From Mycobacteriales bacterium (lineage in GTDB: Bacteria; Actinomycetota; Actinomycetes; DATLTS01): 64,000 nt of DNA. The first letter of the stretch is position 1. Each line of letters starts with the position of its first letter. The DNA lies in NCBI GenBank assembly GCA_035533475.1, contig DATLTS010000046.1, positions 2,229 through 66,228 of the forward strand, given 5' to 3'. Positions 46,072-60,697 of the stretch are shown in pieces. Both the position numbers and the translations under genes were made by a program. The notes below the pieces were generated by a model. That model searched no databases and was not told the DNA's origin. It saw nothing but the letters and a program-made list of their open reading frames with translations.

Positions 46072-46368
46072 ATGGCCATGATCAAAGTCACGTCCGAGGA
46101 TCTGCAGAGCGCATCCGGCACGCTGATGCAGGGCTCGAACGAGATCAGCGACCGCCTGACGAGCATGAAGAACCTCGTGACGAATCTCGTCGGCGGCGAC
46201 TGGCAGGGCGCCGCGTCGGGCAAGTTCAACGAACTGTTCGACCAGTGGAACGTCTCGGCGGCCGACCTGCAGCGGGCCCTAAGCGGGATCTCCCAACTGC
46301 TGGGCAACGCGGCCAGCGCCTACGCCGAGACGGAGAGCCAAATCGCGCAGTCGATGAACCAGGGCTGA
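46072..46368 (+). CDS. WXG100-family protein (ESAT-6/EsxA-like type VII secretion substrate)
   Basis: 98 aa, helical hairpin with a central W-x-G motif (LVGGDWQGAASGKFNELFDQW). N-terminus reads MAMIKVTSEDLQSASGTLMQGSNEI, typical of Esx proteins. Confidence 0.85.
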   Translation: MAMIKVTSEDLQSASGTLMQGSNEISDRLTSMKNLVTNLVGGDWQGAASGKFNELFDQWNVSAADLQRALSGISQLLGNAASAYAETESQIAQSMNQG

Positions 46369-46396
46369 GCCGGGCACCAGAGGCAAGGGAGACCAG

Positions 46397-46690
46397 GTGC
46401 GCTTCACCGTCGACCCGGAAGGGCTCGCCGCCTTGCACGACCAGCTGGTGGGCATCCAGGCCGACATGCAGAACATCGGCTCGTTCACCGGGAACCACGA
46501 TCCGCTGGACCTCGGCACGAATGATGACGTGTTCAACAGCCTGCAGAACTTCTACAACCAGTGGTCCAACGGGCTGTCCATCGTCACCGACGACATGACG
46601 GCGATCGTGGAGTCCCTCGCGACCGCGGCCGAGGGCTACGCGAAGACTGAGAACTCGATCGTGACAGCGGAAACCCCGAAGGGTTCATAG
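46397..46690 (+). CDS. Small helical partner protein (97 aa), WXG100-like size but lacking a WXG motif
   Basis: Good RBS (caagggagacc) upstream. Tightly linked between the WXG100 gene and the large WXG-domain protein. Predicted helical. Confidence 0.5.
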   Translation: MRFTVDPEGLAALHDQLVGIQADMQNIGSFTGNHDPLDLGTNDDVFNSLQNFYNQWSNGLSIVTDDMTAIVESLATAAEGYAKTENSIVTAETPKGS

Positions 46691-46694
46691 TTCG

Positions 46695-48146
46695 ATGCCC
46701 CGATGGCTGACCATTCTCGGTCAGAATTTCTCGCTGCCCGATCCCGACGTCGTCGAGGAGATCTCGCGCCAGTTCCGGCAGATCTCCGATAACCTGGAGC
46801 AGTCCGGCACGCGCCTCACCAAGCTCGGACCCACCCACGACTGGGGTCATTGGTCCGGCTCCGCCGCGGACGCGTTCGAGCAGAAGCTCGGGCCGCTGCC
46901 TGGTGACCTGAATCAGGCATCCGGCTCCTTCGGCAAGGTCGCTTGGGCGCTGTGGGAGTACGGCAACACGCTGCGCGACGTCATCACCTCCATCCAGACG
47001 CTCGCCGGGCATGTCGACGATGCCCAGTCCGAGCTCTCGTCCATCCAGGCCGCGGCCGCCGCTAATACCGACCCCACCCAGCAACGCGCCTGGCAGGACA
47101 AGATCACCCAGGCACAGCAGGCAGTTGCCTCGCACGCGACGCGGCTCCAGCAGTTGCGGGACGACCTGGATTCGGCAGCGCACCTCGTCGAGGGTCGGAT
47201 CCAGGACGCCATCAACATCGGCATCACCGGCTTCAGCTCGTTCGGCCGGCACTGGATCGGTCGAACTCAGAACGCGGTTGGTGAGGTTGCTGGCTTCGTC
47301 GTGCATCCGATCGAGGATCTACCCGGGGCCATCGCCGCCGAGTGGAATCACCCGTCATGGCAGAACCTGGCTCGGGTGGTGGGTGACGTCGCGGGCATCG
47401 TTGGACTAGTCGCTCTGGTCATTCCCGGGCTGGGCGAGGCGCTCATGGTTGTGTCGATGGGCCTCGATGCCGGCAAGCTCGCCCTGGACACGGGGGCGGT
47501 TGTCAGCGGGGAAACACACAGCTGGGGCAACGTCGCCCTCGACGGAATCTCGTTGGCCCTCGATGGCACGGCACTGCACGCGAGCGGGGCGGCCGAAGGT
47601 GAGACTGTGGCCAACGATGCGCTCGGCGCCGGCCAGTCGGATCTGAACCAGGCCGTCCGGGCCAACGTGAAGGCACAGAGCAGCCTGTCTCGGGCGATCG
47701 CGAGCGGACGTTCCGACGGACTGATCGCATCTCTGCGCGACGGCGCCGACGGGTCACTGGTGCATCTCGAGTCGATGCGCAACAAGGTGTCGATGCTCGA
47801 CGACGCCCGGACGGCGGCACAGACGGGTGCCGGCGCCTGGCGGACCGGGTTCCGCAGCTCGCTGAAATTCGACTTCGGCGGGGTCGGCGAAACGTATCAG
47901 GCGTGGCGGCACCTCCAGTGGAACACGCTCGCCCGCAGGTATCTCGGTGAATTCACCGGCGTGGACCTCTCCGGGGCTGTGCACAGCGCAGGTGTCGTTC
48001 GGATCGAAAACCTGAACTTCGCCGTGCATCAGCTCCGAGCTGCGAGCGGCGGCATGGTCGGGGGCGACGATAACTTCTCTGCTGTCCTTGGAGATCCGCT
48101 CGCGGGCCTCCGCGCTCTCGGAGTCAAGGTGGGGGCCGCATCATGA
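46695..48146 (+). CDS. Large WXG-like N-terminal domain protein (483 aa): candidate T7SS effector/polymorphic toxin with central hydrophobic hairpin
   Basis: N-terminal ~100 aa mimic a WXG100 fold with a W-x-G motif (THDWGHWSGSAADAFEQKL). A hydrophobic segment follows (VAGIVGLVALVIPGLGEALMVVSMGL). The C-terminal ~200-aa domain has no recognisable family. It begins 5 nt after the previous gene. Confidence 0.65.
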   Translation: MPRWLTILGQNFSLPDPDVVEEISRQFRQISDNLEQSGTRLTKLGPTHDWGHWSGSAADAFEQKLGPLPGDLNQASGSFGKVAWALWEYGNTLRDVITSIQTLAGHVDDAQSELSSIQAAAAANTDPTQQRAWQDKITQAQQAVASHATRLQQLRDDLDSAAHLVEGRIQDAINIGITGFSSFGRHWIGRTQNAVGEVAGFVVHPIEDLPGAIAAEWNHPSWQNLARVVGDVAGIVGLVALVIPGLGEALMVVSMGLDAGKLALDTGAVVSGETHSWGNVALDGISLALDGTALHASGAAEGETVANDALGAGQSDLNQAVRANVKAQSSLSRAIASGRSDGLIASLRDGADGSLVHLESMRNKVSMLDDARTAAQTGAGAWRTGFRSSLKFDFGGVGETYQAWRHLQWNTLARRYLGEFTGVDLSGAVHSAGVVRIENLNFAVHQLRAASGGMVGGDDNFSAVLGDPLAGLRALGVKVGAAS

Positions 48147-48787
48147 CCGCAACGACGCACATCGCACCGAGCGGGATCCGGCTGGCGACACCCGGGGACT
48201 GGTTCGAGGTGCCGACCTCCGAAGACCCCTCCGAGATCGCACGTCAGGTAGACGCACTGGTCGTCTCCCGGCCCGGGCTTGAAGGGCAGCGCGAGGTGCT
48301 CACCGGGCTGCTCGGCGTCCTCGGGGCCACGGCCGCAGCGAGCCGTGCCCTATGCGTGCGGGCAGTGCTCGTCGACGCTCCCGGTGGCCAGCTGCCGGCC
48401 TTTCTCATGGCCTCTATCGGGGAGGCGCCCGCGGGCGGTGTGGCGGCTATCCCCGGGGAAGACGCTTCTTGGCTGAGCCGGACCTTCGATTTGCCGATGG
48501 GCCCGACGGTCCGTCTCGAGGGGGTCGGCGAAACCCCCCGTGGTGCCGACGGCGGCGCAGTGGCCGTTTCACTCGTGCAGTACCACGCTGCCGTTCCGAG
48601 CACCGACCGGCTGCTCAGCCTGGTGTTTTTCACACCCGCGCTAGGGCTGATGGACACCGTGCTACGGGAGATCTTCCACGGCATCGCCTGCAGCGTCGAG
48701 TTCGAGGCCGACAACCCGGACCCCGAAGGTACGGCCGCGATGGCGCCGACCCATGGGCGTTCCGCCCCGGACGGCCTGACCTCCTGA
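48143..48787 (+). CDS. Hypothetical cytoplasmic protein (214 aa): candidate cognate immunity protein/chaperone
   Basis: Start overlaps the stop of the candidate effector (ATGA), and its stop overlaps the eccC start. No transmembrane segment and no known family. Confidence 0.5.
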   Translation: MTATTHIAPSGIRLATPGDWFEVPTSEDPSEIARQVDALVVSRPGLEGQREVLTGLLGVLGATAAASRALCVRAVLVDAPGGQLPAFLMASIGEAPAGGVAAIPGEDASWLSRTFDLPMGPTVRLEGVGETPRGADGGAVAVSLVQYHAAVPSTDRLLSLVFFTPALGLMDTVLREIFHGIACSVEFEADNPDPEGTAAMAPTHGRSAPDGLTS

Positions 48788-51700
48788 TGCGGCTCACGAT
48801 CACCCTGCGCTCCGCGGAGGCATCTCGTCATCTGGCAGTAGACACCCAGCCCGGAACCACCCTCGCCGACTTGCTCGAGGCCGCCGGTGCCAGCGGCGCT
48901 GTTGCGGTGAACGGCAGGGCGGCGCAGCCCAAGACCTTGCTTAGCCATATTCCGGTTCGTGACGGAACTGTGCTCGATGTTGGTCGCCGGCGCCCTGCCA
49001 CCCGCCGTGCGGACCCGGGCGCCCTGGCCCTACTCGTAGCAGGGGGGCCGGCGGCCGGGCACAGCCTGCCACTGGCCGAAGGAACGCATCCTCTCGGACG
49101 CACCGAACCCCTGCCGCTGGACGATCCGGACGTGTCCCGTCGCCATGCCCAGCTGGTGGTCACCCCCGACCATTCCCTCGCCTTGACCGACCTCGGCTCG
49201 CTGAATGGCACCCGCGTGCAGGAGCAACCGGTGGCCGGCACGCACCTGCTACGCCCCGGCGACCTGATCCGGATGGGGCAGTCCGCGCTCATAGTGGCGA
49301 TGGCACCGACGGCGGACGCGGCCATGACCGAAGGCGACGGGGGCCGGCTCCGGTACAGCCGTCCACCGAGGATCCGGGTGGGAGCGGCCGGGACCAAAGT
49401 GGACCTGCCGGCACCGCCCGGGGAAACCGACCGCGCGCCGATTCCGGTTCTGGCCATCCTGGCCCCAGTGGCTATCGGGGTGATGATGGCCCTGCTGCTG
49501 CACCAGATCACCTACCTAGCCTTCACCGCCCTGTCGCCGGTGATGGCCATCGGCAACGTGGTGTCCGATCGGCGCCGCGGCCGGGTCGGTCACCGCCAGA
49601 GAATGGTCGAGTTCGAGGCGCGTCGCTCCGCCGCCCTGGCTACCGCGCGCACCGCCCAGGAAACCGAGCTTGGTCGTTTGCGCTACGACCATCCCGATCC
49701 GGCCACCGCGCTGCTCATTGCGACCGGCCCGAGCAGCCGATTGTGGGAGCGGCAACGCCACGACGATGACTTCCTCACGCTGCGCATCGGCACCGCCGAG
49801 ATCCCCGCGTCGGTGGAGGTCCGGCAAACGGCGCCGCCCACCGAAACGGTGTCCCGGGTCACCCGGTTGCCAGAAGCGCCCGTGGTCGTGCCGGTGACGA
49901 GTTGCGGCGCGGTGGGTCTGACCGGCCCTGCGACGCTGGTCCGGGCGCTCGCTCGGGCGATGCTGCTGACGGCCGCAGTCCTGCATAGCCCACGTGAACT
50001 CACCATCACCTTGTTGACCCTCGACGAGGCTCGTGCCGACTGGGAGTGGCTGCGCTGGCTCCCGCACACACGCTTCCCTGACTCCGCTGCCGCCGGTTCC
50101 CGAATCGGCAACGACGAGGTCACAGTGACAAACAGGGTTAGTGAACTGGCCGCACTGATCGATGCGCGCCGTGCGGCTGTCCCGCCTGGTCAGAAGCCGA
50201 CGCTGCCGGCAACCGCCGATCTGGTGGTCGTAGACAACTCCTATCGGGTGCGACTCGAAACCGCGCTGGGCCCACTGCTGCACGCCGGGCCGGGTGTCGG
50301 TGTCTACTTCCTCTGCCTGGATGACACGGCCGCCCGGCTGCCCGAGGAATGCGCATCCGTCGTGGAGATCCGCGATGCGCCGGATGGTCCGCTGGCCCAA
50401 CTCCGCCGGAGCGGGCACCAACCGGTAGAGCAAATCGTGCCGGACCGGGTTACTCCCGACGTGTGCGAGGAGCTGGCTCGTTCCATCGCCCCCGTGATCG
50501 ATGCCGGTGGCGTCGAGACCCAGGCGGCGTTGCCCGGATCGGTGCGCTTCCTCGAGCTGGCCGGTCTCGAGCCGCCGACCTCGGAGGCGATCCTCGCGGG
50601 CTGGTCCGGCGGCGGTCGGACCACCCGAGCGCTGCTCGGCGTTGGCGCGGACGGTCCGGCAATTCTCGACCTGGCTCAGGGACCGCACGTCCTCATCGGC
50701 GGCACCACCGGGTCGGGCAAGAGCGAACTGTTGCAAACCCTGGTGGCCTCGCTCGCGGTCGCAAACCGCCCGGACGCGATGAACTTCGTGCTCGTCGACT
50801 ACAAGGGGGGGGCGGCGTTCCGCGGATGCGCCCAGCTGCCGCACACCGTCGGCATGCTCACCGACCTCGACGCCTTCCTCGTCGAGCGGGCGCTCACCTC
50901 GCTGCGTGCCGAACTTCAGCGTCGCAAGGCCCTCCTCGACGCCGCAGACAAGACCAACGTCTCCCGATACTGGGAAGCCCTGCCTTCGATGCCCGGCGCA
51001 GACCCCATGCCACGGCTCGTCGTAGTTGTCGACGAGTTCGCGGTGATGGCCGAGCAGTTGCCGGAACTGCTCAAGTCCCTCGTCGAGATCGCCGCGCAGG
51101 GTCGCTCGCTCGGCGTGCATCTCGTGCTGGCCACGCAGCGCCCGGCGGGCGTGGTCAACGCCGAGATGCGAGCGAACATCAACTTGCGCATCGCGTTGCG
51201 GGTGGCGTCCATTGACGACAGCATGGACGTGATCGGCGGTCCGGAGGCGGCCCGGATCCCGGCCGAAGGCACCGCCGGACGTTGCCTCGTGCGGACCGGC
51301 ACCAGCCGACCGGTCCCCCTGCAGGCCGCGCGAGTCGGGGGCCTGCGGCCCGGAGCCCACGCGGTTAGCGCCAGTGTCGGCGTCGTGCCTGTGGACTGGC
51401 TCGACGTCGGCCGGCCACCGGCCGGCGCGCCGCCCGACAGCTACGACCCGGCGGATCCCACTGATCTGTCCACCTTGGTGACCGCGGTCGCCGAAGCCGG
51501 GAGTCGGCTTGGCACAGCGCGGCCACGCTCACCCTGGCAGCCGCCGCTGCCGACCGCCCTCCCGCTGTCGTCGCTGGCGCCGTCCGACCAGGATCTCGCC
51601 ATCGTCTACGGCCTTGAGGACCTGCCGTCCCGGCAACAGCAGCGTCCCGCCGTACACGACCTACGCCGTGCCGGGCACCTGCTGGTAGCTGGTGCCCCCA

Positions 51701-53109
51701 AATCCGGCAGATCGACCCTGCTGCGCACATTGGCCGGATCGATCGCCACAAGCGTCACCGCCGAAGTGGCCCAGCTCTATGTCGTGGACTGCGGCGGGGG
51801 GGGCCTGTCGTCGCTGGCGGCGTTGCCGCACTGCGGTGCCGTCGTCACGCCGGCCGAGCCTGAGCGGGTTGACCGGCTGCTTACCAGGCTCACAGCTGAG
51901 CTGTCGCGCCGGATGCAGCTGCTTGCCACTGCGGGCTGCAGCGATATCGGTGAGTACGTTGCCGGGGGTGGTGAGCCCCTTCCGTACCTCGCGGTGATCG
52001 TCGATCGTCACGACGCATTCAGCACCGCGCTCGAGCACATCGACGGTGGCCGCCTGGTTACCGAGCTCCAGCGACTGGTCCGGGACGGGCTGGCCGCGGG
52101 TGTCCGGGTCATCGTGACCGGTGACCGGAGCCTCCTGACGGGGAAGCTCGGTGGCCTCGTCGAGGACAAGCTGGTGCTTCGGCTCGCCGACCGGATGGAC
52201 TACACCGTGGCTGGCCTATCGGCCAAGACATTGCCCGACATCGTTCCAACCGGACGCGCGTTCCGGCTGCCGGCCGGCGACCAGATTCAAATCGCCACCC
52301 TCTCCGCCGACCCGGAGGGTGCGGCGCAGAATCGCGCGATCCGGGACATCGCCGCGACTGCTGCGGCACCACGGCACCGACCGATCCGGGTCGATTCGCT
52401 GCCTCCGGCAATCAGCTATGCCGAGGCACGTGATCTGCCCGTCTCCGGCAGCGGCGCTCTTGTCGGCGTCGGCGGCGACGAGTTGGGACAGGTCCGCGCC
52501 GACGGCCCCGGGTTCCTCGTCCTCGGGACGTCAGGTAGCGGCCGCAGCAGCGCCCTGGCCGTTATCGCCCGTTCCGTCGTCGACGACGGTCGCCCGGTGG
52601 TTCTGGTCACCCCACGCCGGTCCCGATTGTCGGTACTGATCCCCGCCGGACCCGGCGTACTCGCAGTTCACGACGGTGGCGAGGAGGAACTTGCGGCCGC
52701 GGTAGCCACTTCAACCGACACGGTCCTCATCATCGACGACGTGGAAATGCTCACCGAGACCGCCCTTGGAGAACAGATCACCGCCATCCTCCGCCAGGCA
52801 CGCGATACCCGGCACGTCGTGTACGCCGCCGCGTCGGGAGACGAGGCGGGAAACATCTACCGCGGCCCGCTCGCCGAACTGCGCAAGTGCAAGCAAGGGC
52901 TGGTACTTGCACCAACCAACCCCACCCAGGGGGATGTGATCGGCACCCGGCTGCCTCGGTCGGTGCTGTCCGCCGGCATCCCGCAACGAGGCGCCCTGGT
53001 GCTCAACGGGACGGTCACCGCGGTGCATGTACCAACCATCGAACCGCCGGCACCCGCGCGTGCTCCCGCCAAGCGCCGACGGGCGCCTGCCCGGACCGAG
53101 AGCGGTTGA
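48787..53109 (+). CDS. eccC: EccC/EssC-type type VII secretion FtsK/SpoIIIE ATPase (three P-loop domains) with N-terminal ubiquitin-like and FHA domains
   Basis: 1440 aa. A beta-grasp-like N-terminus (MRLTITLRSAEASRHLAVDTQPGTTLADLLEAAG) is followed by an FHA domain (HPLGRTEPLPLDDPDVSRRHAQLVV...SLNGTRV). Two transmembrane helices follow. Three Walker A motifs are present (GGTTGSGKSELLQTL, AGAPKSGRSTLLRTL, LGTSGSGRSSALAV) with Walker B-like DEF/DD boxes. The listed ORF start at 48352 overlaps the previous gene; ATG 48787 was chosen. Confidence 0.9.
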   Translation: MRLTITLRSAEASRHLAVDTQPGTTLADLLEAAGASGAVAVNGRAAQPKTLLSHIPVRDGTVLDVGRRRPATRRADPGALALLVAGGPAAGHSLPLAEGTHPLGRTEPLPLDDPDVSRRHAQLVVTPDHSLALTDLGSLNGTRVQEQPVAGTHLLRPGDLIRMGQSALIVAMAPTADAAMTEGDGGRLRYSRPPRIRVGAAGTKVDLPAPPGETDRAPIPVLAILAPVAIGVMMALLLHQITYLAFTALSPVMAIGNVVSDRRRGRVGHRQRMVEFEARRSAALATARTAQETELGRLRYDHPDPATALLIATGPSSRLWERQRHDDDFLTLRIGTAEIPASVEVRQTAPPTETVSRVTRLPEAPVVVPVTSCGAVGLTGPATLVRALARAMLLTAAVLHSPRELTITLLTLDEARADWEWLRWLPHTRFPDSAAAGSRIGNDEVTVTNRVSELAALIDARRAAVPPGQKPTLPATADLVVVDNSYRVRLETALGPLLHAGPGVGVYFLCLDDTAARLPEECASVVEIRDAPDGPLAQLRRSGHQPVEQIVPDRVTPDVCEELARSIAPVIDAGGVETQAALPGSVRFLELAGLEPPTSEAILAGWSGGGRTTRALLGVGADGPAILDLAQGPHVLIGGTTGSGKSELLQTLVASLAVANRPDAMNFVLVDYKGGAAFRGCAQLPHTVGMLTDLDAFLVERALTSLRAELQRRKALLDAADKTNVSRYWEALPSMPGADPMPRLVVVVDEFAVMAEQLPELLKSLVEIAAQGRSLGVHLVLATQRPAGVVNAEMRANINLRIALRVASIDDSMDVIGGPEAARIPAEGTAGRCLVRTGTSRPVPLQAARVGGLRPGAHAVSASVGVVPVDWLDVGRPPAGAPPDSYDPADPTDLSTLVTAVAEAGSRLGTARPRSPWQPPLPTALPLSSLAPSDQDLAIVYGLEDLPSRQQQRPAVHDLRRAGHLLVAGAPKSGRSTLLRTLAGSIATSVTAEVAQLYVVDCGGGGLSSLAALPHCGAVVTPAEPERVDRLLTRLTAELSRRMQLLATAGCSDIGEYVAGGGEPLPYLAVIVDRHDAFSTALEHIDGGRLVTELQRLVRDGLAAGVRVIVTGDRSLLTGKLGGLVEDKLVLRLADRMDYTVAGLSAKTLPDIVPTGRAFRLPAGDQIQIATLSADPEGAAQNRAIRDIAATAAAPRHRPIRVDSLPPAISYAEARDLPVSGSGALVGVGGDELGQVRADGPGFLVLGTSGSGRSSALAVIARSVVDDGRPVVLVTPRRSRLSVLIPAGPGVLAVHDGGEEELAAAVATSTDTVLIIDDVEMLTETALGEQITAILRQARDTRHVVYAAASGDEAGNIYRGPLAELRKCKQGLVLAPTNPTQGDVIGTRLPRSVLSAGIPQRGALVLNGTVTAVHVPTIEPPAPARAPAKRRRAPARTESG

Positions 53110-53601
53110 TCAGTGCCGCCGCAGAGCCCCCCGCAGGCGCCCCCATCGGCCATGCATTACCGGTTGGCCTGCTGGCGCTGCGCCAGCGGGCCGATCCGCC
53201 CGCATCCGGGTTCGCGTCGGATCCGCCACGGGTTCGGACTGCTGTATTTCCGGCCGGGCGGCTACGCTCGCCGGCCGGAAATGCACCCATACGTCGCCAA
53301 AGCGCAGCGAGCACGCGTCGATCAGGGCGGTTCCGTCCGGCCCAACGGCGGTCTCCCCCAGCCACGTGCCGTTCGCGGACCCGAGGTCACGCAACACGAC
53401 AGCGGAAGCGGTCACTTCGAGTTCGGCGTGACGACGGGAGACGGACCGGTCTGGGTCCAGCTCGGTGAGATCGACATCCGGTGGCACCGGCATCCGCTCG
53501 TCGTAGCGTCCGACAACTGTCATCCCGGGCGGCAGGAACCATACCGATGGTCCGGCCGCGAGGGACGATTCGGTCGCCCGTTGGGTCACGGCAGCGAGCA
53601 T
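53110..53601 (-). CDS. Stand-alone FHA-domain protein
   Basis: GMTVVGRYDERMPVPPDVDLTELDPDRSVSRRHAELEVTASAVVLRDLGSANGTWL matches the FHA consensus (G-R, S-R-x-H, N-G-T). It is convergent with the eccC end. The start could be further upstream (up to 53844) through an Arg-rich stretch. Confidence 0.7.
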   Translation of the reverse strand: MLAAVTQRATESSLAAGPSVWFLPPGMTVVGRYDERMPVPPDVDLTELDPDRSVSRRHAELEVTASAVVLRDLGSANGTWLGETAVGPDGTALIDACSLRFGDVWVHFRPASVAARPEIQQSEPVADPTRTRMRADRPAGAAPAGQPVMHGRWGRLRGALRRH

Positions 53602-53630
53602 ACGGTGATCGAACCTCAGGGGGCGCAATC

Positions 53631-54437
53631 GTGAGCGACGACCCGACCGCAACCCGCGGCCGGTCCAAGCCACCTGCATCAGAGCCGCCGGCGGAAGGGC
53701 AGCCCAGCAACGACCCGACCGCAACCCGCGGCCGGTCCAAGCCGGCGCCGGCACCGCCTGTATCCGAGCCGCCGGCGGAGCGGCAGGCCGCCGCAGATCC
53801 GACCGCAACCCGCGGTCGGCTCGCTCCACAGTCCTCGCCGCCACCCGACGGCGCGCCCCAGCCTGACCCGCAAGGGACCGTGCTCCGGCGTCGCGCGCCG
53901 GGGTCCTTCCCGGCCGCGGAAGTCAAGGTCGCTCCAGCACTGGCCTCCGCCCCGATGGCACCGGTCGTACTGCCCGATCGTCGGATCGAGCCACCCGTCT
54001 ACCGGCCTCCCGGCAGCCGGCGCAGGCTGGTCGCTGCCGTCGGTGGTTTGCTTCTCGCGGGCGCCGGAGTGGCCCTCGGATACGCATTGCATCCGCAGCC
54101 AACGCCCCCGGCCCGGGCCACGGTCGCACCGCCGACCCTGTCGGGGGTGGTCGCTTCCGGTCCGGCCGGAGCTCTGCACTGCCCATCAGCGCTCCTGCAC
54201 GTGGTCGGAACTATCACGGTCACCGCCGCGACCACGGTTCGCTACCAGTGGCGCCTTCCGGATGGCACCTTCACGGCCGTGCAAACCCTCACCGCGGCAG
54301 GCCCCGGACCGGTCACCGCCACACTGAGCTACACCCTGTCCGGTCACGGACAGCAAACCGGCGTGGCCACTCTGCACGTGCTGACACCCGCGGACGTTTA
54401 CTCCAACCCAGTGGCCGTCGCCTACCGGTGCCCATGA
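53631..54437 (+). CDS. Proline-rich single-pass membrane protein with 3x DPTATRGR(S/L)KP tandem repeats and a C-terminal extracytoplasmic beta-rich domain
   Basis: GTG start with an aggggg RBS. Three ~60-bp direct repeats (53640-53830) encode DPTATRGRSKP...SEPPAE. A transmembrane helix follows (LVAAVGGLLLAGAGVALGYAL), then a Cys-containing C-terminal domain. The opposite-strand reading of the same repeats is also open, so strand assignment is not certain. Confidence 0.55.
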   Translation: MSDDPTATRGRSKPPASEPPAEGQPSNDPTATRGRSKPAPAPPVSEPPAERQAAADPTATRGRLAPQSSPPPDGAPQPDPQGTVLRRRAPGSFPAAEVKVAPALASAPMAPVVLPDRRIEPPVYRPPGSRRRLVAAVGGLLLAGAGVALGYALHPQPTPPARATVAPPTLSGVVASGPAGALHCPSALLHVVGTITVTAATTVRYQWRLPDGTFTAVQTLTAAGPGPVTATLSYTLSGHGQQTGVATLHVLTPADVYSNPVAVAYRCP

Positions 54438-54449
54438 AGCCAGTTGCCG

Positions 54450-57063
54450 CTAGGAACCTGTGAAATGGAAGGTGACCGGCATGTAGTTCGCCGCGTGAGC
54501 GTTAGCGTTTGGACTGCTCTGGCATGACGCCTCGATGGTGAGGTCACCGGCGGGTATCGAGGGCGTTGGTTGTCCCTGCTGGGATTGGAATGAGCCGACC
54601 TGCGCCGTGCCCTGCCAGGAACCGTCCGGCTGTAGCCGGATCGGCCCACCCTGCCTGAGGTCCGCTTGGGGGACGAGGGTTGCGATGTCGTAAATGACGA
54701 TTTGGCTTCCTGCTGGGCAGGCTGTTTGGGAGGTCATGGTGATGACCGTTTTGGCCCCACCACTGCTCGGCGAAATGGTGAACGTCATCGCCGGGCCGCC
54801 GTAGCAGAGCCACGACACCGCGTCGTTGGGATCGTTGAGCCTGGCCGTCACGTTCGAGTGGTAGTAGAACTGCCACTGACAGGCAGCGTTCATGTCGACC
54901 GGCTGGGTGCCTTTGGCTCCTGTACAGGTCCAGTTCCCGGTCCCGTCGCCCGGACCGAGCAGAGGCTTCGTCGGGGCGGCCATGCTGAATCCGAGCGACG
55001 CGCAGTAGGAGTCGAGTTGCGCGCCGCCGAGCAAGCCGGCCTGCGACGGCACGATAGACGCGGGCGGCAACTCGGCGCCGGCCGGCAGCCTGCGGAGGTT
55101 TTGCGTGCTGGTCAGGACGTGCCCGTGGTAGGTGAACGAATCGAATATGGTCAACCGCGTTGCCGTGCACGTTACCTGAGTCGGGACGATACCCGTCTGC
55201 AGCGGCACGCCCTGCGACAGTGTGTGATCGTACCCGGCGTAGAGCAGGCTCACCGAGTGGCTGTAGTCAGCGTTGATCGTCAGCAGGGTGTGCTCACCAC
55301 GGGTCGCCCAGCGCCAGGTCGACGTCCCATATCCGGTGTCGATGAAGGGGGCGCCGTTGAGAACCCCCGTGGCCGGCGGTCCGCCGGGCGGGGACACCCC
55401 GATCGCCGTGCCGTCGGCGTTGTAACGCGTGTCCCCGTCGAGCGGACTGGGCGGCAGGTTTACCAGGACGGGCTGCTGGCTCCAGACGTCGTCGTACGGA
55501 CCGCCCAGCACCGCCCAGGTGCCGACTATGCATGACGCCAGCGGTGGGGGGCTGGGTGAGGCTGCAGCGGCGCCGACGAGAGTGACGGCCGTCAGTACCG
55601 CAACCACTCCAGCGACGACCGGCGGCCGGCTGGCGATGCGCACCGGTATCGCGCTCACAACGACACTAACCAGAGCGGATGTGCGCCGCGGTGGCGCCGC
55701 CCGGCCCGGTTCCGCGGGAGCTTTCGGGCCGTCCGCCGCGTGACTCGGGGGCTCGCTCCTCGGGGCGCTCGGTCCGGGGGGAGCCGCCGGGGAAGTGCCG
55801 CCCGCCACGGTGCCGCCCGCCACGGTGCCGCTCGCCACGGTGGCCCCCACCGTGCTGGAACCGGCGACCGGAGCGAGCGCAGCCCCCGCTGCCGAGACGG
55901 TCCCGGCGCCGACAATCGCGGCCGTTGCGCCGCCGGCGGCCAGAGCGGCGACAGCGCCAACCATCGCGGCCGGCTGCCAATTCGGCCCGTAGGCCTGACG
56001 AGCTGCCGCGGTGAGGTTCTCCCGGAACTGCGCGGCCGAACCGGGCCGGGCGGCAGGATCTTTGGCCAGGGCGGACATCGTGAGCAGCGCCAAGGCCTCG
56101 GGGATCTGTGGCCGCACCGACCGGGGGTCCGGCACCGGATCTCCGAGGTGGGCGTCCATCACGGCGGCTGGGGTCGCGCCCACGTACGGGCGCTGCCCGG
56201 TCAGCACCTCGAAGAGCACCGCCCCGCAGGAGTAGATATCCGTTCTGGCGTCCAGGGGTTCGCCGCGCACCTGTTCCGGACTCATGTAGGCGGGCGAGCC
56301 CACCGATGCCTCGCTGCCCTGGGCGAAGGCTCCGACGTCGCGGGCGAGGCCGAAGTCGACGAGCCGGGACACCCCGGCGCGATCCACGAGGATGTTGTCG
56401 GGCTTGATGTCGCGGTGCACCATCCCCCGGGCATGCACGTGCTCGAGGCCGGCGAGCGCCCCGTCGAAGACTGCGGCCGCCTGTTCGCCACCAAGTGGGC
56501 CAGAACGGCGAAGCATCGCGCGCAGGCTGGCCCCGTCCACGTAGTCGACCACGATCGCCGCGATCACGTCGTCGTCGAGGATTTCGCGCACCCGGACGCA
56601 GTTCGGATGATCGAGGGCACGCATCAGCGTGGCCTCGTCGCGGAAGCGGGCGCGAAATTCCTCGTCGTCCATCCACTCGGGCGCGAGCACTTTGATCGCA
56701 ACCGCATGGCCGTCGTCGTCATGCGCCCGATACACGGTGCCGGACGCGCCGGACCCCACGATTCCGTCAACCGAGTAGGTGCCGATCCGCACCCGGGCTG
56801 GCGAGCCCAGCCACCTGGCCACGAGCAGTGGCGCCGCCCCGAGTAGGGCACCGGCGACGGCTGCGACGATCCACCACACCGGGTTCATCGAACCGACCCG
56901 CGACCCCCACCACGCAGCGTCCCCAGCGCCAGCAGCGAGGCCCAGCCCCGCTAACCGTGCCAGGCTCGAGGAACGGTGGCGGAAAGCCAGCATCAAGGAG
57001 ATGCCGGTGGCGGCGACGGTGACGGCCAGACCGAAGTAACCGGCCCAGGTGGGAACATGCATG
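54450..57063 (-). CDS. Membrane Ser/Thr protein kinase with N-terminal transmembrane helices, second TM and large Cys-rich extracytoplasmic domain
   Basis: Hanks kinase motifs are present (GSGASGTVYRA, AIKVL, HRDIKPDNILV, DFGLA, SPAYMSPE). N-terminal hydrophobic helices precede the kinase domain. An Ala/Gly-rich linker, a transmembrane helix (VVAGVVAVLTAVTLVGAAAA) and a ~380-aa C-terminal region with eight Cys follow. Start set at ATG 57063 (MHVPTWAGYFGL). Confidence 0.9.
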
Positions 57064-57148: not shown

Positions 57149-58546
57149 CTAGCTGAAGGCGGCGGCGAGTTCTTCGAGGCATCCGGGCAGCGCGTCGGCG
57201 ATCGCCCAGGTGTCCGCCACCAGATCGGGGCAGGCCATGATGCCGACGTCGAGCCGGTCGAGGTTGGACAGCACCGTGATGTTCATCCCGGTGCCCGGCA
57301 GCAGCGGGCCGAGCGGATAGATGGCGTCGATCCGAGCCCCAGCCAGGTACAGCGCTACCGGCGGTCCCATGACGTTGGACACGATGAGGTTCTGAAGGGC
57401 GGGCTGCAGCGCCGAGAGACCGAGGCTGCGCATCAGCCAGGTCACGACGGAAACCGCCGCGGGTGGCGTCACGTCGGCGAGCGACGCGAGCGTCGACGTC
57501 CCTGCCGCCCCCGTAATCTCCTTGGCCATCGCCGAGTTTCGATGCACGAGCTGTAGGAGCTCCGCCGGCTCGCTCTCCCGCATCGGTAGAGCTACGAGGA
57601 GGGCGGCGAGCCGGTTGGTGCCGCTCGTCTCGCCCTCACCCGCATTGAGCGGGCAGCTGACGACGAGCGGTCGGCCCGGCACCGCATCCCGCGCCCTGAG
57701 GTAGCGCCGGAGTGCCAGCGCGATCGTGGCGAGCACCACATCGTTGAGCTTCACGCCGGCCGCGTCCTTGACCTGCTTCGCCTGCTCGAGCGGCAGCGCG
57801 GAGAAGGCCGCGATCCGGGCCCGGGTGGGCGGCCCGCTGATCGGGGTCCGCGGCGAGGCGATCGGCATCGTGGCCGGGCCGGAACCGGCAATCATGCGAC
57901 CCACGGCGGGCAGGGCCGAGATCAGGCCCCGTCCGCTCGACAGCACGGCCCTCCCGGCGGCCAGCGGCCAGCGGAGTTGGTTCGCCAGGGTCCGGCCGGT
58001 CAGCGCGAATGCGCCGGGCCGTTCGTCCTGGGGGCCGGGCAGCGGCGGCGCGGGAAGCGGCGGAGGGTTCGGCTCGAGATCTAGCAGGGCGGCAATGAAC
58101 TCGGCCCCCGCCGCCCCGTAGAGGGTGCAGTGGTGCACCTTGGCGACCAGCCCCACCCGGCCCGCTGCCAGTCCGTGAACGACGTGCAACTCCCAAAGCG
58201 GCCGGTCCCGGTCCAACCGTCGGCTCGCGATCCTTCCGACCAGATCGCCGAGGGCGCGCGCATCGCCGGGGGGATCGACCTCGTCGTCGAACAGGTGGAG
58301 CGAGAGGTCGACGTCGGCCACCTCCAGCCAGTACGGCTTGTCCAGGGAGAGCGGCACGGTGACGAGTTGCCGTCCGAATGGCGGCATCAGGTGGATTCGG
58401 TCGGCCACGACCTGGCGCAACCGGGCGCGGGAGTACCCGTCTCCGGGTGAAGGATCGAGCAGCAGGACACCGAGAACGTGCATCGGGAGCTCGGCGGTCT
58501 CCAGGGCGAGGAAGGCGGCGTCCATCCCGGTGAGCTGCTCGGCCAT
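57149..58546 (-). CDS. Wax ester synthase/diacylglycerol acyltransferase (WS/DGAT)
   Basis: MAEQLTGMDAAFLALET N-terminus and the active-site HHCTLYGAAG (HHxxxDG-type) motif. Confidence 0.85.
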   Translation of the reverse strand: MAEQLTGMDAAFLALETAELPMHVLGVLLLDPSPGDGYSRARLRQVVADRIHLMPPFGRQLVTVPLSLDKPYWLEVADVDLSLHLFDDEVDPPGDARALGDLVGRIASRRLDRDRPLWELHVVHGLAAGRVGLVAKVHHCTLYGAAGAEFIAALLDLEPNPPPLPAPPLPGPQDERPGAFALTGRTLANQLRWPLAAGRAVLSSGRGLISALPAVGRMIAGSGPATMPIASPRTPISGPPTRARIAAFSALPLEQAKQVKDAAGVKLNDVVLATIALALRRYLRARDAVPGRPLVVSCPLNAGEGETSGTNRLAALLVALPMRESEPAELLQLVHRNSAMAKEITGAAGTSTLASLADVTPPAAVSVVTWLMRSLGLSALQPALQNLIVSNVMGPPVALYLAGARIDAIYPLGPLLPGTGMNITVLSNLDRLDVGIMACPDLVADTWAIADALPGCLEELAAAFS

Positions 58547-58560
58547 CGGGCTCCCCTCGT

Positions 58561-60686: not shown

Positions 60687-60697
60687 GGCGTGCCTCC

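What the first reader, a model, noticed from the sequence alone, without database searches (positions are those of the whole stretch)
53110..57063. FHA protein, Thr-repeat membrane protein and receptor-like Ser/Thr kinase divergent from the eccC operon: candidate phospho-threonine regulatory module
Three genes follow eccC: a small stand-alone FHA protein, a proline-rich membrane protein and a transmembrane Ser/Thr kinase.

The membrane protein's cytoplasmic N-terminus carries three near-identical repeats, DPTATRGR(S/L)KP, read directly from 53640-53830. Mycobacterial STPKs favour Thr in short repeated motifs, and FHA domains bind pThr. These repeats are therefore plausible kinase substrates and FHA docking sites, for both the stand-alone FHA protein and the EccC FHA domain. 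That would link an extracellular signal sensed by the kinase to secretion activity.
Basis: inference. Interest (0 to 1): 0.7.

Follow-up and report, generated by a model that had tools for sequence, protein, structure and literature searches.

The report
Threonine-motif scaffold, FHA protein, kinase beside T7SS
Next to a type VII secretion ATPase sit a receptor-like Ser/Thr kinase, a small phosphothreonine-binding (FHA) protein and a membrane protein whose cytoplasmic tail carries repeated threonine motifs; this gene set and the motif recur in several soil actinobacteria, so it is very probably a phospho-threonine switch for secretion, though no phosphorylation has been measured.

Summary
A small FHA gene (53110-53601, minus), a 268-aa single-pass membrane protein ("MEM", 53631-54437, plus) and an 870-aa Ser/Thr kinase (STPK; 54450-57062, minus) follow an FHA-bearing EssC/EccC ATPase. 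MEM starts with three DPTATRGR copies. The strand question is settled for the plus strand.

New evidence supports the pThr reading:
- MEM belongs to an undescribed family: disordered N-terminus, TM helix, Ig-like ectodomain.
- The ectodomain also ends many receptor STPKs, so MEM looks like a kinase-less receptor half.
- 17 of 23 family members carry copies of a Thr motif, about DPx[A/E]-T-[R/V]-x-R-P-P. Thr is never replaced by Ser in its hydrophobic form (24 vs 0).
- The motif also sits in the tail of the neighbouring FHA protein and its homologues, down to about 32% identity.
- MEM homologues neighbour an FHA gene in 7 of 8 informative contexts. Window-type STPKs and FHA-EssC recur beside them.
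- EssC FHA domains with an intact pThr pocket are enriched for neighbouring kinases (p=0.004).

Kinases and FHA proteins in T7SS variants, and the T6SS PpkA-TssL-Fha switch, are published. This is therefore a new variant of a known kind. Phosphorylation, binding and the link to secretion remain inferred.

The parts
46072..46690 (+). Two WXG100-type genes (46072-46368 and 46397-46690). They give the secretion-system context.
   Evidence: Pfam WXG100 E=4.7e-22 for the first and a weak E=0.0067 for the second. Gene calls on L002 agree.
46695..48787 (+). A 483-aa T7SS_signal/WXG100-like protein (46695-48146) and a 214-aa partner (48143-48787). They are a candidate substrate and accessory protein.
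   Evidence: Pfam T7SS_signal E=6e-7. Both are conserved directly upstream of EssC in the six nearest relatives.
48787..53109 (+). EssC/EccC-type FtsK/SpoIIIE secretion ATPase, 1440 aa. It has an N-terminal beta-grasp-like segment, an FHA domain and TM helices.
   Evidence: Pfam FtsK_SpoIIIE E=8e-58 and FHA E=4e-12. 80 actinobacterial homologues were found.
49042..49296 (+). FHA domain of EssC with an intact pThr pocket (GR ... SRRH ... NGT).
   Evidence: The Pfam match covers residues about 87-171. The pocket signature RSHNG is one of only 16 intact among 77 homologues.
53110..53601 (-). Small stand-alone FHA protein, 163 aa. The FHA domain lies at about 53296-53517, followed by a disordered Pro/Arg-rich tail and a basic C-terminus, RWGRLRGALRRH.
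   Evidence: Pfam FHA E=3.2e-11. Invariant G31 R32 S55 R56 H58 N77 G78 across 10 family members. A 99%-identical NCBI protein is annotated as an FHA protein of a Mycobacteriales MAG. GC3 favours the minus frame in the domain.
53200..53223 (-). Thr motif DPTRTRMR in the tail of the FHA protein. It is the same motif as in MEM.
   Evidence: It is the fourth and only other DPTxTRxR in the window. It is identical in P0004 (89% identity). It reads DPTRTHQGRR in P0005 (43%), EPTQTRLGRR in L089, LTQTRLGRR in L088, EGTRLGRR in L086, DQTVLGPRPR in L084 and ETVISARRPRPP in L093.
53631..54437 (+). MEM, a 268-aa single-pass membrane protein. It has a disordered cytoplasmic N-terminus (residues 1-128), a TM helix (129-153; 54015-54089) and an Ig-like ectodomain (170-266; 54138-54428) with two invariant Cys.
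   Evidence: An identical protein is called on a 198-kb ENA contig. AF2 gives pLDDT above 90 for the ectodomain and no secondary structure in 1-128. The Foldseek top hit is a CARDB/Ig-like fold. There are 225 remote homologues.
53640..53828 (+). Three DPTATRGR(S/L)(K/A)P repeats (53640-53672, 53712-53744, 53796-53828). They are candidate phospho-acceptor and FHA-docking motifs. The conserved Thr is the second one (ATR).
   Evidence: The relative P0002 has DPIATRGR, so the first Thr is dispensable. The family consensus has A/E at -1 and R at +3.
53865..53894 (+). Fourth Thr motif of MEM, DPQGTVLRRR (Thr at 53877-53879).
   Evidence: The same T-V-[LV]-R-x-R motif lies in the juxtamembrane linker of the EssC-adjacent kinases of the nearest relatives. 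There are 6 hits in kinase ORFs against 0.34 expected. It is conserved in P0002.
54450..57062 (-). Receptor-like Ser/Thr kinase, 870 aa. In order: N-terminal hydrophobic helices (residues 9-27 and 56-74), kinase domain (96-342; 56037-56777), Ala/Gly- and Pro-rich linker, TM (482-500; 55563-55619), and a Cys-rich ectodomain of about 350 aa (54453-55562).
   Evidence: Pfam Pkinase E=3.9e-50. VAIK, HRDIKPDN, DFG and SPE are read directly from the translation. Hydropathy supports the helices. Full-length orthologues at 48-51% identity sit next to MEM homologues in L087, L088 and L089. Eight Cys are invariant in the ectodomain.
55795..55842 (-). A 15-nt tandem repeat (3.2 copies) encoding GTVAGGTVAGGT in the kinase linker. 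These are possible autophosphorylation or docking threonines.
   Evidence: TRF gives 96% matches. Orthologues keep (G/E)TVA copies at the same place. Function is untested.

Best explanation
The three genes form a phospho-threonine signalling and assembly module attached to an FHA-bearing type VII secretion ATPase.

**What MEM is.** MEM is a kinase-less relative of a family of actinobacterial receptor kinases. It keeps their juxtamembrane region, TM helix and Ig-like ectodomain. Its disordered cytoplasmic N-terminus displays four copies of a short Thr motif, with family consensus D-P-x-[A/E]-T-[R/V]-x-R-P-P.

**Proposed mechanism (inferred).**
1. The adjacent receptor-like STPK phosphorylates the motif threonines on MEM. 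It also phosphorylates the single copy in the tail of the small FHA protein.
2. These pThr sites are read by the two FHA domains with intact pThr pockets: that of the small FHA protein and that at the N-terminus of EssC.
3. The multivalent MEM tail could recruit or cluster EssC directly. Alternatively the small FHA protein acts as an adaptor, with its FHA domain on MEM-pThr and its own pThr tail in the EssC FHA domain.
4. Either way, secretion is switched on in response to whatever the kinase ectodomain senses.

**Status.** Shown here: gene structure, coding strand, topology, motif conservation and Thr-specificity, shared motif, conserved gene neighbourhood, and intact catalytic and pThr-binding residues. 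Inferred: phosphorylation, FHA binding, who binds whom, and that secretion is the output.
For: **MEM family architecture.**
- HMMER against 1.84 billion representatives gives 225 hits.
- Of the best 150, 29 are STPK + linker + TM + this ectodomain. 22, plus MEM itself, are kinase-less with an N-terminal cytoplasmic region of more than 45 aa, a TM helix and the ectodomain.

**Thr motif arrays.**
- There are 41 motif instances in 23 kinase-less members; 17 of 23 have at least 1 copy and 15 of 23 have at least 2.
- T[VILM][VLIAH][RQ] occurs 24 times with Thr and 0 times with Ser, against 0.9 in shuffles.
- 24 of the 29 hydrophobic-hydrophobic-R tripeptides are preceded by Thr, although Thr is only 7% of residues.

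**Motif shared with the FHA protein.** The same motif lies in the tail of the adjacent FHA protein. It is conserved in homologues down to about 32% identity.

**Conserved neighbourhood.**
- L086: SARP / FHA / MEM / STPK.
- L088: EssC-FHA / SARP / FHA / MEM / STPK.
- L089 and L090: EssC-FHA / FHA / MEM / STPK / WXG-like genes.
- L087: MEM / STPK.
- L093: EssC-FHA ... MEM / FHA.
- L092: Hsp70-FHA / MEM.
- The STPKs of L087-L089 are 48-51% identical to the window kinase over their full length.

**FHA-EssC and kinases.** The six nearest EssC relatives have an STPK gene directly downstream. Their kinases carry TVLRHRDR in the juxtamembrane linker. An intact EssC pThr pocket correlates with a neighbouring kinase: 11 of 16 against 17 of 61, Fisher p=0.004.

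**Competent parts.**
- FHA-family invariants G-R, S-R-x-H and N-G are present.
- The kinase catalytic motifs are present.
- MEM residues 1-128 are disordered. RRR precedes the TM helix and the Cys-bearing beta-sandwich follows it, giving N-in topology.

**Precedent.**
- In the Agrobacterium T6SS, PpkA phosphorylates Thr14 of the membrane protein TssL and Fha binds it (PMC3953482).
- T7SS variants with a kinase, an FHA protein and single-TM proteins with unstructured cytoplasmic tails are described, with phospho-control proposed (PMC11217815).
- In Schaalia, a kinase-dependent pThr in the disordered region of an FHA protein controls Esx (PMC13622651).
Against: - No experimental data exist for this organism, an uncultured Mycobacteriales-like MAG.
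- The motif regular expressions were written after seeing the sequences, so the shuffle statistics are optimistic. The Thr-versus-Ser contrast is the cleaner control.
- R at pT+3 is not a documented FHA preference that I can cite.
- No PP2C phosphatase was seen in the cluster. It was not searched for genome-wide.
- Stand-alone FHA proteins are rare among FHA-EssC loci in general (3 of 79). MEM is absent from all 80 loci found through EssC, so the full module is confined to a few lineages.
- Two MEM-family contexts show no EssC in view. L086 is a short contig. L092 has a different FHA partner.
- One more context (L091) shows neither FHA nor kinase by Pfam.
- In kinase-fused members the motif enrichment is weaker (16 observed against 9.2 in shuffles).
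- The Ala/Gly-rich hydrophobic stretch at kinase residues 366-384 leaves its topology slightly uncertain.
Confidence: 0.6

Rival explanations
1. Structural-core reading. The kinase and MEM are constitutive membrane subunits of a minimal T7SS variant. They would be counterparts of the EssB pseudokinase or TsdD and of the single-TM proteins TsdH/TseK. Their contacts with FHA domains would build the machine rather than transmit a signal. The Thr motifs would be assembly contacts that may not need regulated phosphorylation.
For: - The cluster has no other membrane components besides EssC, MEM and the kinase; the same holds in L088 and L089.
- In T7SSb the EssC FHA domains bind the EssB pseudokinase without phosphorylation. 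T7SSd/e contain a membrane kinase plus single-TM proteins with unstructured cytoplasmic tails (PMC11217815).
- The nearest EssC relatives always carry a kinase directly downstream.
Against: - The kinase keeps all catalytic motifs.
- Both FHA pockets are intact, unlike the T7SSb EssC FHA domains (PMC11217815).
- The motif residue is strictly Thr, which is hard to explain without phosphorylation.
- This reading is not exclusive of the best explanation.
Confidence: 0.2
2. Different output. The FHA-MEM-STPK trio is a general envelope or transcription signalling cassette, for example acting through SARP regulators as in PknH-EmbR or AfsK-AfsR. On this view its position next to eccC in this window says little about secretion.
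For: - SARP (BTAD + Trans_reg_C) genes abut the FHA-MEM pair in L086 and L088.
- L092 pairs a MEM homologue with an Hsp70-FHA fusion and dynamin-like genes, with no EssC in view.
- The MEM ectodomain occurs on many STPKs in unrelated contexts, for example L085.
Against: - FHA-EssC lies within about 3 kb of the MEM homologue in 4 of the 6 contexts with enough flank: window, L088, L089 and L093.
- Small-FHA homologues are glued to EssC in L083 (tail-to-tail) and L084 (same operon) even without MEM.
- The EssC pThr pocket correlates with kinase adjacency.
Confidence: 0.12
3. The repeats are a recent, functionally neutral tandem duplication in a low-complexity Pro/Ala-rich linker. On this view the resemblance to the FHA tail is chance.
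For: - Two copies are 97% identical at the DNA level, and copy number differs between close relatives, 3 versus 2. This shows recent expansion and contraction.
- Such regions evolve fast.
Against: - Homologues at 35-48% identity have independently different copies of the same Thr motif in variable numbers.
- The motif is Thr-specific.
- One extra copy in the 163-aa neighbouring protein is about 4e-5 likely by chance, and it is conserved in relatives.
Confidence: 0.05
4. The repeat region is read on the minus strand as an N-terminal extension of the FHA protein, or it is non-coding DNA between divergent genes, for example operator repeats.
For: - The minus ORF 53110-53844 is open through the repeats.
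- It stays open in L001 as well.
- The repeats lie just beyond a 29-bp divergent gap.
Against: - The substitution pattern fits the plus frame and not the FHA frame.
- Family N-termini match the plus-strand product from GTG 53631.
- FHA relatives start at or near the position of ATG 53601 and lack the extension.
- In relatives FHA is co-directional with MEM, so there is no divergent promoter region there.
- No promoter-like sites were found.
Confidence: 0.02

Closest known systems
T6SS threonine-phosphorylation pathway of Agrobacterium tumefaciens: PpkA kinase, membrane protein TssL (pThr14), Fha (Lin et al. 2014, PMC3953482)
   Same: - A membrane Ser/Thr kinase is present.
- A bitopic membrane protein carries the target Thr in its cytoplasmic N-terminus.
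- A stand-alone FHA protein docks on that pThr.
- Secretion is the output.
- This is exactly the logic proposed here.
   Different: - It is a different secretion system (T6SS in a Gram-negative) with no homology of the membrane protein.
- TssL has one site whereas MEM has four motif copies.
- Here the ATPase itself also carries an FHA domain, and the FHA protein carries the motif too.
T7SS variants T7SSd/T7SSe of Garrett, Palmer et al. 2024 (PMC11217815): TsxA WXG100, TsxC FHA-EssC with conserved pThr site, TsxD membrane kinase, TsdH/TseK single-TM proteins with unstructured cytoplasmic tails, TseJ FHA protein
   Same: - The parts list matches: WXG100, FHA-EssC with an intact pocket, a membrane STPK, a single-pass protein with a disordered cytoplasmic region and (in T7SSe) a separate FHA protein.
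- The authors also propose control by Thr phosphorylation.
   Different: - T7SSd was described in Olsenella and Bifidobacterium. Its EssC relatives are only about 33% identical to this one (L059, L062).
- No TsdI-like giant Ig protein and no phosphatase are in this cluster.
- The kinase here has extra N-terminal TM helices. Its ectodomain is Cys-rich and, in a low-confidence model, mostly beta. The TsdD ectodomain is predicted helical.
- MEM has an Ig-like ectodomain, whereas TsdH is described as a TM helix plus a short tail.
- The small FHA protein lacks DUF6382.
- The paper reports no Thr motif.
Esr threat-sensing pathway linked to Esx in Actinomycetales (bioRxiv 2026, PMC13622651)
   Same: - It is actinobacterial.
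- A kinase/phosphatase pair phosphorylates a Thr in the disordered region of an FHA-domain output protein.
- It is genetically linked to EccC and proposed to modulate EccC.
   Different: - Esr uses MoxR/vWA proteins and beta-propeller surface sensors.
- Its FHA protein has a pseudophosphatase domain.
- It has no MEM-type protein.
- None of those components is in this window.
GarA/OdhI-type FHA proteins of Corynebacteriales (PDB 2KFU, 2KB3; weak phmmer matches, E about 0.02)
   Same: Each is a small FHA protein that carries its own kinase-target Thr motif in a disordered extension. This allows intramolecular pThr-FHA binding.
   Different: - In GarA the motif (ETTS) is N-terminal and the targets are TCA-cycle enzymes.
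- Here the motif is C-terminal, has a different sequence, and is shared with a membrane protein.
Receptor STPK juxtamembrane phosphosites and neighbouring FHA partners (StkP JMD, PMC12077195; PknQ-MupFHA, PMC4238996)
   Same: In both, Thr residues lie in the linker between kinase and TM helix, and an FHA gene neighbours the kinase.
   Different: Here the juxtamembrane/TM/ectodomain half exists as a separate kinase-less protein with an array of motifs.

Membership tests
FHA domain (PF00498), small protein 53110-53601 | Profile match above the curated threshold | tested here: met
   43.9 bits against a cutoff of 20.7, E=3.2e-11.
FHA domain (PF00498), small protein 53110-53601 | Canonical pThr-contacting residues (G-R, S-x-x-H, N-G) | tested here: met
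   VVGR, VSRRH and ANGT are present. They are invariant in 10 aligned family members. They align to FhaA (3PO8) PDTGVSRRH...NSTNGT.
FHA domain (PF00498), small protein 53110-53601 | Binds phosphothreonine peptides | not testable with these tools
   Needs ITC or pull-down with phospho- and unphospho-DPTA(pT)RGR peptides.
Hanks-type Ser/Thr protein kinase (PF00069) | Profile match and catalytic motifs (VAIK Lys, HRD, DFG, APE-like) | tested here: met
   171 bits, E=3.9e-50. VAIKVL, HRDIKPDN, VDFG and YMSPE are read in the translation.
Hanks-type Ser/Thr protein kinase (PF00069) | Kinase activity on the MEM and FHA-tail motifs | not testable with these tools
   Needs an in vitro kinase assay or phosphoproteomics.
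T7SS EssC/EccC ATPase with N-terminal FHA | FtsK/SpoIIIE NTPase domains, TM segment and N-terminal FHA, encoded beside WXG100 genes | tested here: met
   FtsK_SpoIIIE E=8e-58 (2 stretches) and FHA E=4e-12. WXG100 lies at 46072-46368.
T7SSd (Garrett et al. 2024) | TsdC FHA domain with conserved pThr-binding consensus | tested here: met
   Pocket signature R, S, H, N, G is intact.
T7SSd (Garrett et al. 2024) | TsdD: membrane STPK with N-terminal cytoplasmic kinase and extracytoplasmic C-terminal region | tested here: inconclusive
   A membrane STPK is present. However, it has extra N-terminal hydrophobic helices and a Cys-rich ectodomain rather than the helical one described. No TsdD sequence was compared.
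T7SSd (Garrett et al. 2024) | TsdH: single TM helix with short unstructured cytoplasmic region | tested here: inconclusive
   MEM has a disordered cytoplasmic region and one TM helix, but also a 100-aa Ig-like ectodomain. No TsdH sequence was available for comparison.
T7SSd (Garrett et al. 2024) | TsdI: very large Sec-exported Ig-repeat protein with C-terminal TM, encoded in the cluster | tested here: not met
   No such gene lies within 10 kb either side of MEM (gene list of L002), nor in L088 or L089.
T7SSd (Garrett et al. 2024) | EssC clusters phylogenetically with TsdC of Olsenella/Bifidobacterium | not tested
   Only pairwise values are available: Bifidobacteriaceae loci L059 and L062 are 33% identical. 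No tree was built.
MEM family (defined here): kinase-less IDR + TM + Ig-like ectodomain proteins | C-terminal ectodomain HCP...W.LPDG...LHVL.P.DVYS.PV.V.Y.CP after a single TM helix | tested here: met
   phmmer gives E of 1e-24 to 1e-8 to the kinase-less members of 184-309 aa. The alignment has invariant C184, P185, W207, G244, P253 and C267.
MEM family (defined here) | At least 2 copies of the Thr motif in the cytoplasmic N-terminal region | tested here: met
   The window protein has 4 copies. 15 of 23 members have at least 2.
MEM family (defined here) | Adjacent FHA-domain gene | tested here: met
   Window, L001, L086, L088, L089/L090, L092 and L093 all have one. L091 is the negative case. 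L087 lacks the flank.
T6SS threonine phosphorylation pathway (PpkA/Fha/TssL) | T6SS core genes (TssL, TssM, Hcp ...) | tested here: not met
   None is in the cluster. This is an analogy of mechanism only, not membership.

The most novel reading that the evidence does not exclude
EssC, the receptor kinase, MEM and the small FHA protein together are the complete membrane platform of an undescribed actinobacterial T7SS subtype. MEM-type proteins are 'kinase-less receptor halves'. Their arrays of a Thr-only docking code (DPxxT[R/V]xRPP) are phosphorylated in trans. They then act as multivalent pThr scaffolds that oligomerise the FHA-bearing ATPase. The small FHA protein, which carries the same code in its own tail, would serve as a relay or brake. 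The code would then be a general FHA-docking language shared by a whole family of actinobacterial receptor kinases.
Probability: 0.25. Interest if true: 0.8.

Novelty: new variant of a known kind. Interest (0 to 1): 0.62.

Why it matters
Several newly catalogued T7SS variants encode kinases, phosphatases and FHA proteins. Their EssC FHA domains keep a pThr pocket. What gets phosphorylated and what the FHA domains bind has been left open (PMC11217815).

This locus and its relatives point to concrete candidates:
- a specific Thr-only motif, present in arrays on a dedicated membrane protein and once on the FHA protein;
- a cognate kinase and two intact FHA pockets encoded next door.

That turns a general idea into experiments with defined peptides and point mutants.

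It also defines an unannotated protein family (no Pfam match), made of kinase-less paralogues of receptor kinases. The family may show how bacterial Ser/Thr kinase signalling uses separate scaffold subunits.

Tried and rejected
- **Word-indexed protein searches.**
  - The search with MEM found only itself and one 88% relative.
  - The search with the kinase ectodomain found nothing.
  - The full HMMER scan was needed to find the MEM family.
- **tblastn against the EssC loci.** MEM, the kinase ectodomain and the kinase N-terminus gave no hits against the 80 EssC-anchored loci. The full module is absent from those genomes' EssC neighbourhoods.
- **Degenerate DNA pattern scan.** A scan of metagenome contigs returned one locus, L085. 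It is a kinase-fused member in an uninformative context.
- **Stop codons as a strand test.** The minus frame is also open in L001, so this was not informative. Codon-position substitution counts were used instead.
- **GC-frame plot.** It is ambiguous in the Pro/Ala/Arg-rich parts. The FHA tail shows highest GC at first codon positions. It must still be translated, because it is the only continuation of the FHA domain frame.
- **Inverted DNA repeat I1.** The arms 53548-53576 and 53639-53667 are 72% complementary. They fall in different codon phases of the two genes, so I treated the match as chance.
- **EssC linker motif.** PATRRADP between the beta-grasp-like segment and the FHA domain of EssC is not conserved in relatives and was dropped.
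- **Kinase ectodomain structure.**
  - The single-sequence model had pLDDT 33 and was unusable.
  - The ligand or fold of the sensor domain stays unknown.
- **PDB search with the small FHA protein.** phmmer gave only weak matches, E >= 0.003.
- **Promoter and terminator scan.** It showed nothing above the shuffle level.

Full report
**1. What is there**

Six-frame ORFs and Pfam scans show a compact type VII secretion cluster:
- two WXG100-type genes (46072-46690);
- a 483-aa T7SS_signal/WXG100-like protein (46695-48146);
- a 214-aa protein (48143-48787);
- a 1440-aa FtsK/SpoIIIE ATPase of the EssC/EccC type with an N-terminal FHA domain (48787-53109).

The three genes of the finding follow:
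- a small FHA protein on the minus strand (53110-53601; Pfam FHA E=3.2e-11);
- a Pro-rich single-pass membrane protein on the plus strand (53631-54437), called MEM here;
- an 870-aa Ser/Thr kinase on the minus strand (54450-57062; Pkinase E=3.9e-50).

The kinase has VAIK, HRD, DFG and SPE motifs. It also has hydrophobic helices before the kinase domain, a further TM helix at residues 482-500 and a Cys-rich C-terminal region of about 350 aa.

- eccC and the FHA gene are tail-to-tail with abutting stop codons;
- FHA and MEM are divergent, 29 bp apart;
- MEM and the kinase are convergent, 12 bp apart.

The window contains no other kinase or FHA domain.

A 99%-identical FHA protein in NCBI is labelled as coming from a Mycobacteriales MAG. 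The window is identical over MEM and its neighbourhood to a 198-kb ENA metagenome contig. On that contig an automatic gene caller placed a spurious plus-strand ORF antisense to the FHA gene.

**2. The repeats and the strand question**

The three repeats are real:
- 38-nt copies lie at 53634, 53706 and 53790, spaced 72 and 84 nt.
- They encode DPTATRGRSKP twice and DPTATRGRLAP once.

Stop codons cannot decide, because the minus frame is open in the one close relative too. Substitutions can decide:
- Against the 88%-identical relative L001, 12 of 19 differences in 53631-53870 hit third positions of the plus ORF, giving 11 synonymous and 7 non-synonymous codons.
- In the FHA frame the same 12 hit second positions, giving 3 synonymous and 15 non-synonymous codons.
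- The relative lacks exactly one 72-nt unit, in frame.

Remote family members begin MSDDPxATR, just as the product from GTG 53631 does. FHA relatives start at or near the position of ATG 53601. The repeats are therefore the extreme N-terminus of MEM.

**3. What MEM is**

Word-indexed search found almost nothing. A full HMMER scan of 1.84 billion representatives with the TM helix plus C-terminal part gave 225 hits.

An AlphaFold model built on 19 family sequences gives:
- no secondary structure in residues 1-128;
- a TM helix at 129-153;
- a confident beta-sandwich at 170-266 (pLDDT above 90).

The best structural matches are CARDB/Ig-like domains. There is no Pfam family. Basic residues (RRR) precede the helix and two invariant cysteines lie in the C-terminal domain. 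This places the N-terminus in the cytoplasm.

Architectures among the 150 best hits:

| Architecture | Count |
|---|---|
| Kinase domain + linker + TM + this ectodomain | 29 |
| Kinase-less like MEM (N-terminal region over 45 aa, TM, ectodomain) | 22, plus MEM itself |
| Short anchored forms, or secreted proteins with tandem copies of the domain | the remainder |

MEM therefore looks like the juxtamembrane, TM and ectodomain half of a receptor-kinase family, existing as a separate protein.

**4. The Thr motif is the hallmark of the family**

The cytoplasmic regions of the kinase-less members share almost no sequence except short repeated motifs built around one threonine. Examples:
- DPNATRLPP, three copies;
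- DPNSTRHRG and DPGATRYRG;
- ETVLRP and STVLRARPG;
- EKTALRP, SETVLRS and NETILRS;
- ETVVRPP, ETMLRVPG and ETMVRAPR.

From 41 instances in 23 proteins the consensus is D(-4) P(-3) x [A/E](-1) T [R/V](+1) [L/V/G](+2) R(+3) P P. The counts:
- The hydrophobic form T[VILM][VLIAH][RQ] occurs 24 times with Thr and never with Ser. Composition is 172 Thr to 139 Ser, and shuffles give 0.9.
- 24 of the 29 hydrophobic-hydrophobic-Arg tripeptides in these regions are preceded by Thr.

The patterns were written after inspection, so the shuffle numbers are generous. The Thr/Ser contrast is an internal control. [quoted passage not shown]

In the window protein the conserved residue is the second Thr of DPTATRGR, because the close relative has DPIATRGR. 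MEM also has a fourth copy, DPQGTVLRRR at 53865-53894. That form, TV[LV]RxR, is present in the juxtamembrane linker of the kinases encoded directly downstream of EssC in the six nearest EssC relatives. There are 6 hits in kinase ORFs against 0.34 expected.

**5. The same motif sits on the FHA protein**

DPTxTRxR occurs four times in the six-frame translation of the 64-kb window: three times in MEM and once, on the other strand, in the C-terminal tail of the small FHA protein (VADPTRTRMRADRP, 53200-53223). Shuffles give 0.03 per window. There are no copies in 1.7 Mb of related loci.

The tail motif is conserved while the rest of the tail is not:

| Homologue | Tail motif |
|---|---|
| P0004 (89% identity) | identical |
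| P0005 (43%) | DPTRTHQGRR |
| L089 | EPTQTRLGRR |
| L088 | LTQTRLGRR |
| L086 | EGTRLGRR |
| L084 | DQTVLGPRPR |
| L093 | ETVISARRPRPP |

All these proteins keep G-R, S-R-x-H and N-G of the pThr pocket. They end in a basic RW(Y)RRL segment.

**6. Conserved neighbourhoods**

Contexts of MEM homologues:

| Locus | Gene order |
|---|---|
| L086 | SARP / FHA171 / MEM241 / STPK661 |
| L088 | FHA-EssC / SARP / FHA165 / MEM231 / STPK860 / two further genes |
| L089, L090 | FHA-EssC / FHA186 / MEM255 / STPK854 / 599-aa protein / WXG-like / WXG100 |
| L087 | MEM254 / STPK882 (contig starts at MEM) |
| L093 | FHA-EssC / sigma factor / HTH / response regulator / MEM253 / FHA180 |
| L092 | Hsp70-FHA fusion / MEM195 |
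| L091 | no FHA or kinase recognisable |

- The kinases of L087, L088 and L089 are 48-51% identical to the window kinase over the full length. This includes the N-terminal helices and the ectodomain with eight invariant Cys.
- An FHA-domain gene is next to the MEM homologue in 7 of 8 contexts that have the flank, counting the window and L001.
- Small-FHA homologues are also attached to FHA-EssC without MEM. In L083 they are tail-to-tail, as in the window. In L084 they share an operon, with WXG100 and an STPK nearby.

**7. The EssC side**

A genome scan with EssC gave 80 actinobacterial loci. Home-made HMMs gave these counts:
- an STPK within 10 kb in 30 of 79 loci;
- a stand-alone FHA protein in only 3 of 79;
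- MEM in none.

The pThr-pocket residues of the EssC FHA domain are intact in only 16 of 77 loci, the window among them. Of those 16, 11 have a neighbouring kinase, against 17 of 61 with a degenerate pocket (odds ratio 5.7, Fisher p=0.004). Three of the five exceptions are contigs under 8 kb.

**8. Mechanism**

The best-supported reading is a phospho-threonine module.
1. The receptor-like kinase phosphorylates the motif threonines on the MEM tail and on the tail of the small FHA protein.
2. The two intact FHA domains, of the small FHA protein and of EssC, read them.
3. Assembly or activity of the secretion ATPase follows.

The multivalent MEM tail could cluster EssC directly. Alternatively the small FHA protein, which has both a reader domain and a motif, could bridge MEM to EssC or compete as a brake.

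None of these steps is measured. Phosphorylation, binding partners and the output are inferences from architecture, conservation and precedent.

I consider four rivals:
- The kinase and MEM are constitutive structural subunits, like EssB, TsdD or TsdH. This is not exclusive of the main reading.
- The output is something other than secretion, for example SARP-dependent transcription as suggested by L086 and L088.
- The repeats are a neutral low-complexity expansion.
- The region is read on the minus strand or is non-coding. This is rejected in section 2.

**9. Comparison with what is known**

- **Closest mechanism.** In the Agrobacterium T6SS, PpkA phosphorylates Thr14 in the cytoplasmic N-terminus of the membrane protein TssL. 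Fha binds it and secretion is activated (PMC3953482).
- **T7SS catalogue.** Garrett, Palmer and colleagues catalogued variants T7SSc-j. Several combine an FHA-EssC having a conserved pThr site, a membrane kinase, single-TM proteins with unstructured cytoplasmic tails and sometimes a separate FHA protein. The authors suggested control by phosphorylation without naming sites (PMC11217815).
- **Experimental case.** A 2026 preprint shows kinase-dependent pThr in the disordered region of an FHA protein controlling Esx in Schaalia. It uses different components, namely MoxR, vWA and beta-propeller sensors (PMC13622651).
- **Fit to T7SSd.** The present cluster shares the T7SSd/e parts list in outline. 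It fails one defining feature of T7SSd, because there is no TsdI-like giant Ig protein in the cluster. It also differs in the kinase and in having MEM with an Ig ectodomain.
- **Literature gap.** In the papers I searched and read (Garrett et al. read) I found no description of this family or of a Thr motif.

I therefore rate this a new variant of a known kind. The principle is known. The scaffold family, the Thr-only motif and the four-gene set are new.

**10. Limits**

- All relatives come from metagenomes, and only nine MEM-family contexts could be read.
- The kinase ectodomain could not be modelled, so the signal sensed is unknown.
- No phosphatase was identified.
- A hydrophobic Ala/Gly stretch in the kinase linker (residues 366-384) leaves a small doubt about its topology.

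Noticed in passing
window 53152-53634 (+): The gene call stored with the identical ENA contig (L002) places a 160-aa plus-strand ORF with no Pfam hit antisense to the real FHA gene. The NCBI copy annotates the FHA protein instead. This is a clear gene-calling error in a 71% GC genome.
   Followed up: yes
window 46695-48787: A 483-aa T7SS_signal/WXG100-like protein has a Gly/Ala-rich hydrophobic C-terminal half, followed by an overlapping 214-aa gene. Both are conserved directly upstream of EssC in the six nearest relatives. They look like a secreted membrane-active substrate with a partner or immunity protein.
   Followed up: partly
window 48787-48980: The first 65 or so residues of EssC (MRLTITLRS...VRDGTVLDV) look like a beta-grasp/ubiquitin-like module ahead of the FHA domain. 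They are conserved in relatives. Pfam finds nothing. Garrett et al. reported that T7SSd lacks a ubiquitin-like protein, so it may be fused to the ATPase in this lineage.
   Followed up: partly
window 55795-55842 (minus-strand gene): A 15-nt tandem repeat (3.2 copies, 96% matches) encodes GTVAGGTVAGGT in the kinase linker. Orthologues keep (G/E)TVA copies at the same place. These may be autophosphorylation or docking threonines on the kinase itself.
   Followed up: partly
loci L003-L082 (EssC homologues): Most actinobacterial FHA-EssC proteins (61 of 77), including the Streptomyces and Actinoplanes ones, have a degenerate pThr pocket (for example SPASG in place of RSHNG). Only 16 are intact, and these are enriched for neighbouring kinases.
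   Followed up: yes
L086 3-812; L088 4392-6737: SARP-type regulators (BTAD + Trans_reg_C; with an NTPase domain in L088) sit immediately beside the FHA-MEM pair. This recalls PknH-EmbR and AfsK-AfsR and suggests a transcriptional branch in some lineages. No SARP is near the window cluster.
   Followed up: partly
L092 8506-10588: A MEM-family gene directly follows an Hsp70-like ATPase fused to an FHA domain, in a cluster with dynamin-like GTPase genes and no EssC in view. The MEM-FHA pairing seems older than the link to T7SS.
   Followed up: no
window 53985-54014 and MEM family members: A second short motif, P-[VI]-[YF]-[RK]-P followed by Arg-rich residues (PPVYRPPGSRRR), lies just before the TM helix. 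It is found in 17 of 23 kinase-less members and in kinase-fused members. Its function is unknown.
   Followed up: partly
window 53113-53150 (minus) and FHA homologues: The small FHA proteins end in a conserved basic Trp-containing segment: RWGRLRGALRRH, RWYRRLFRR, IWRRLLRRPRR. It may be an amphipathic membrane- or partner-binding helix.
   Followed up: no
window 57149-63000 and 41900-45740: The cluster is embedded among lipid-metabolism genes: WS/DGAT acyltransferases, acyl-CoA dehydrogenases, CoA-transferase, luciferase-like monooxygenase and beta-lactamase-fold protein. This is typical of Mycobacteriales. No mobile-element signs were seen next to the cluster.
   Followed up: no
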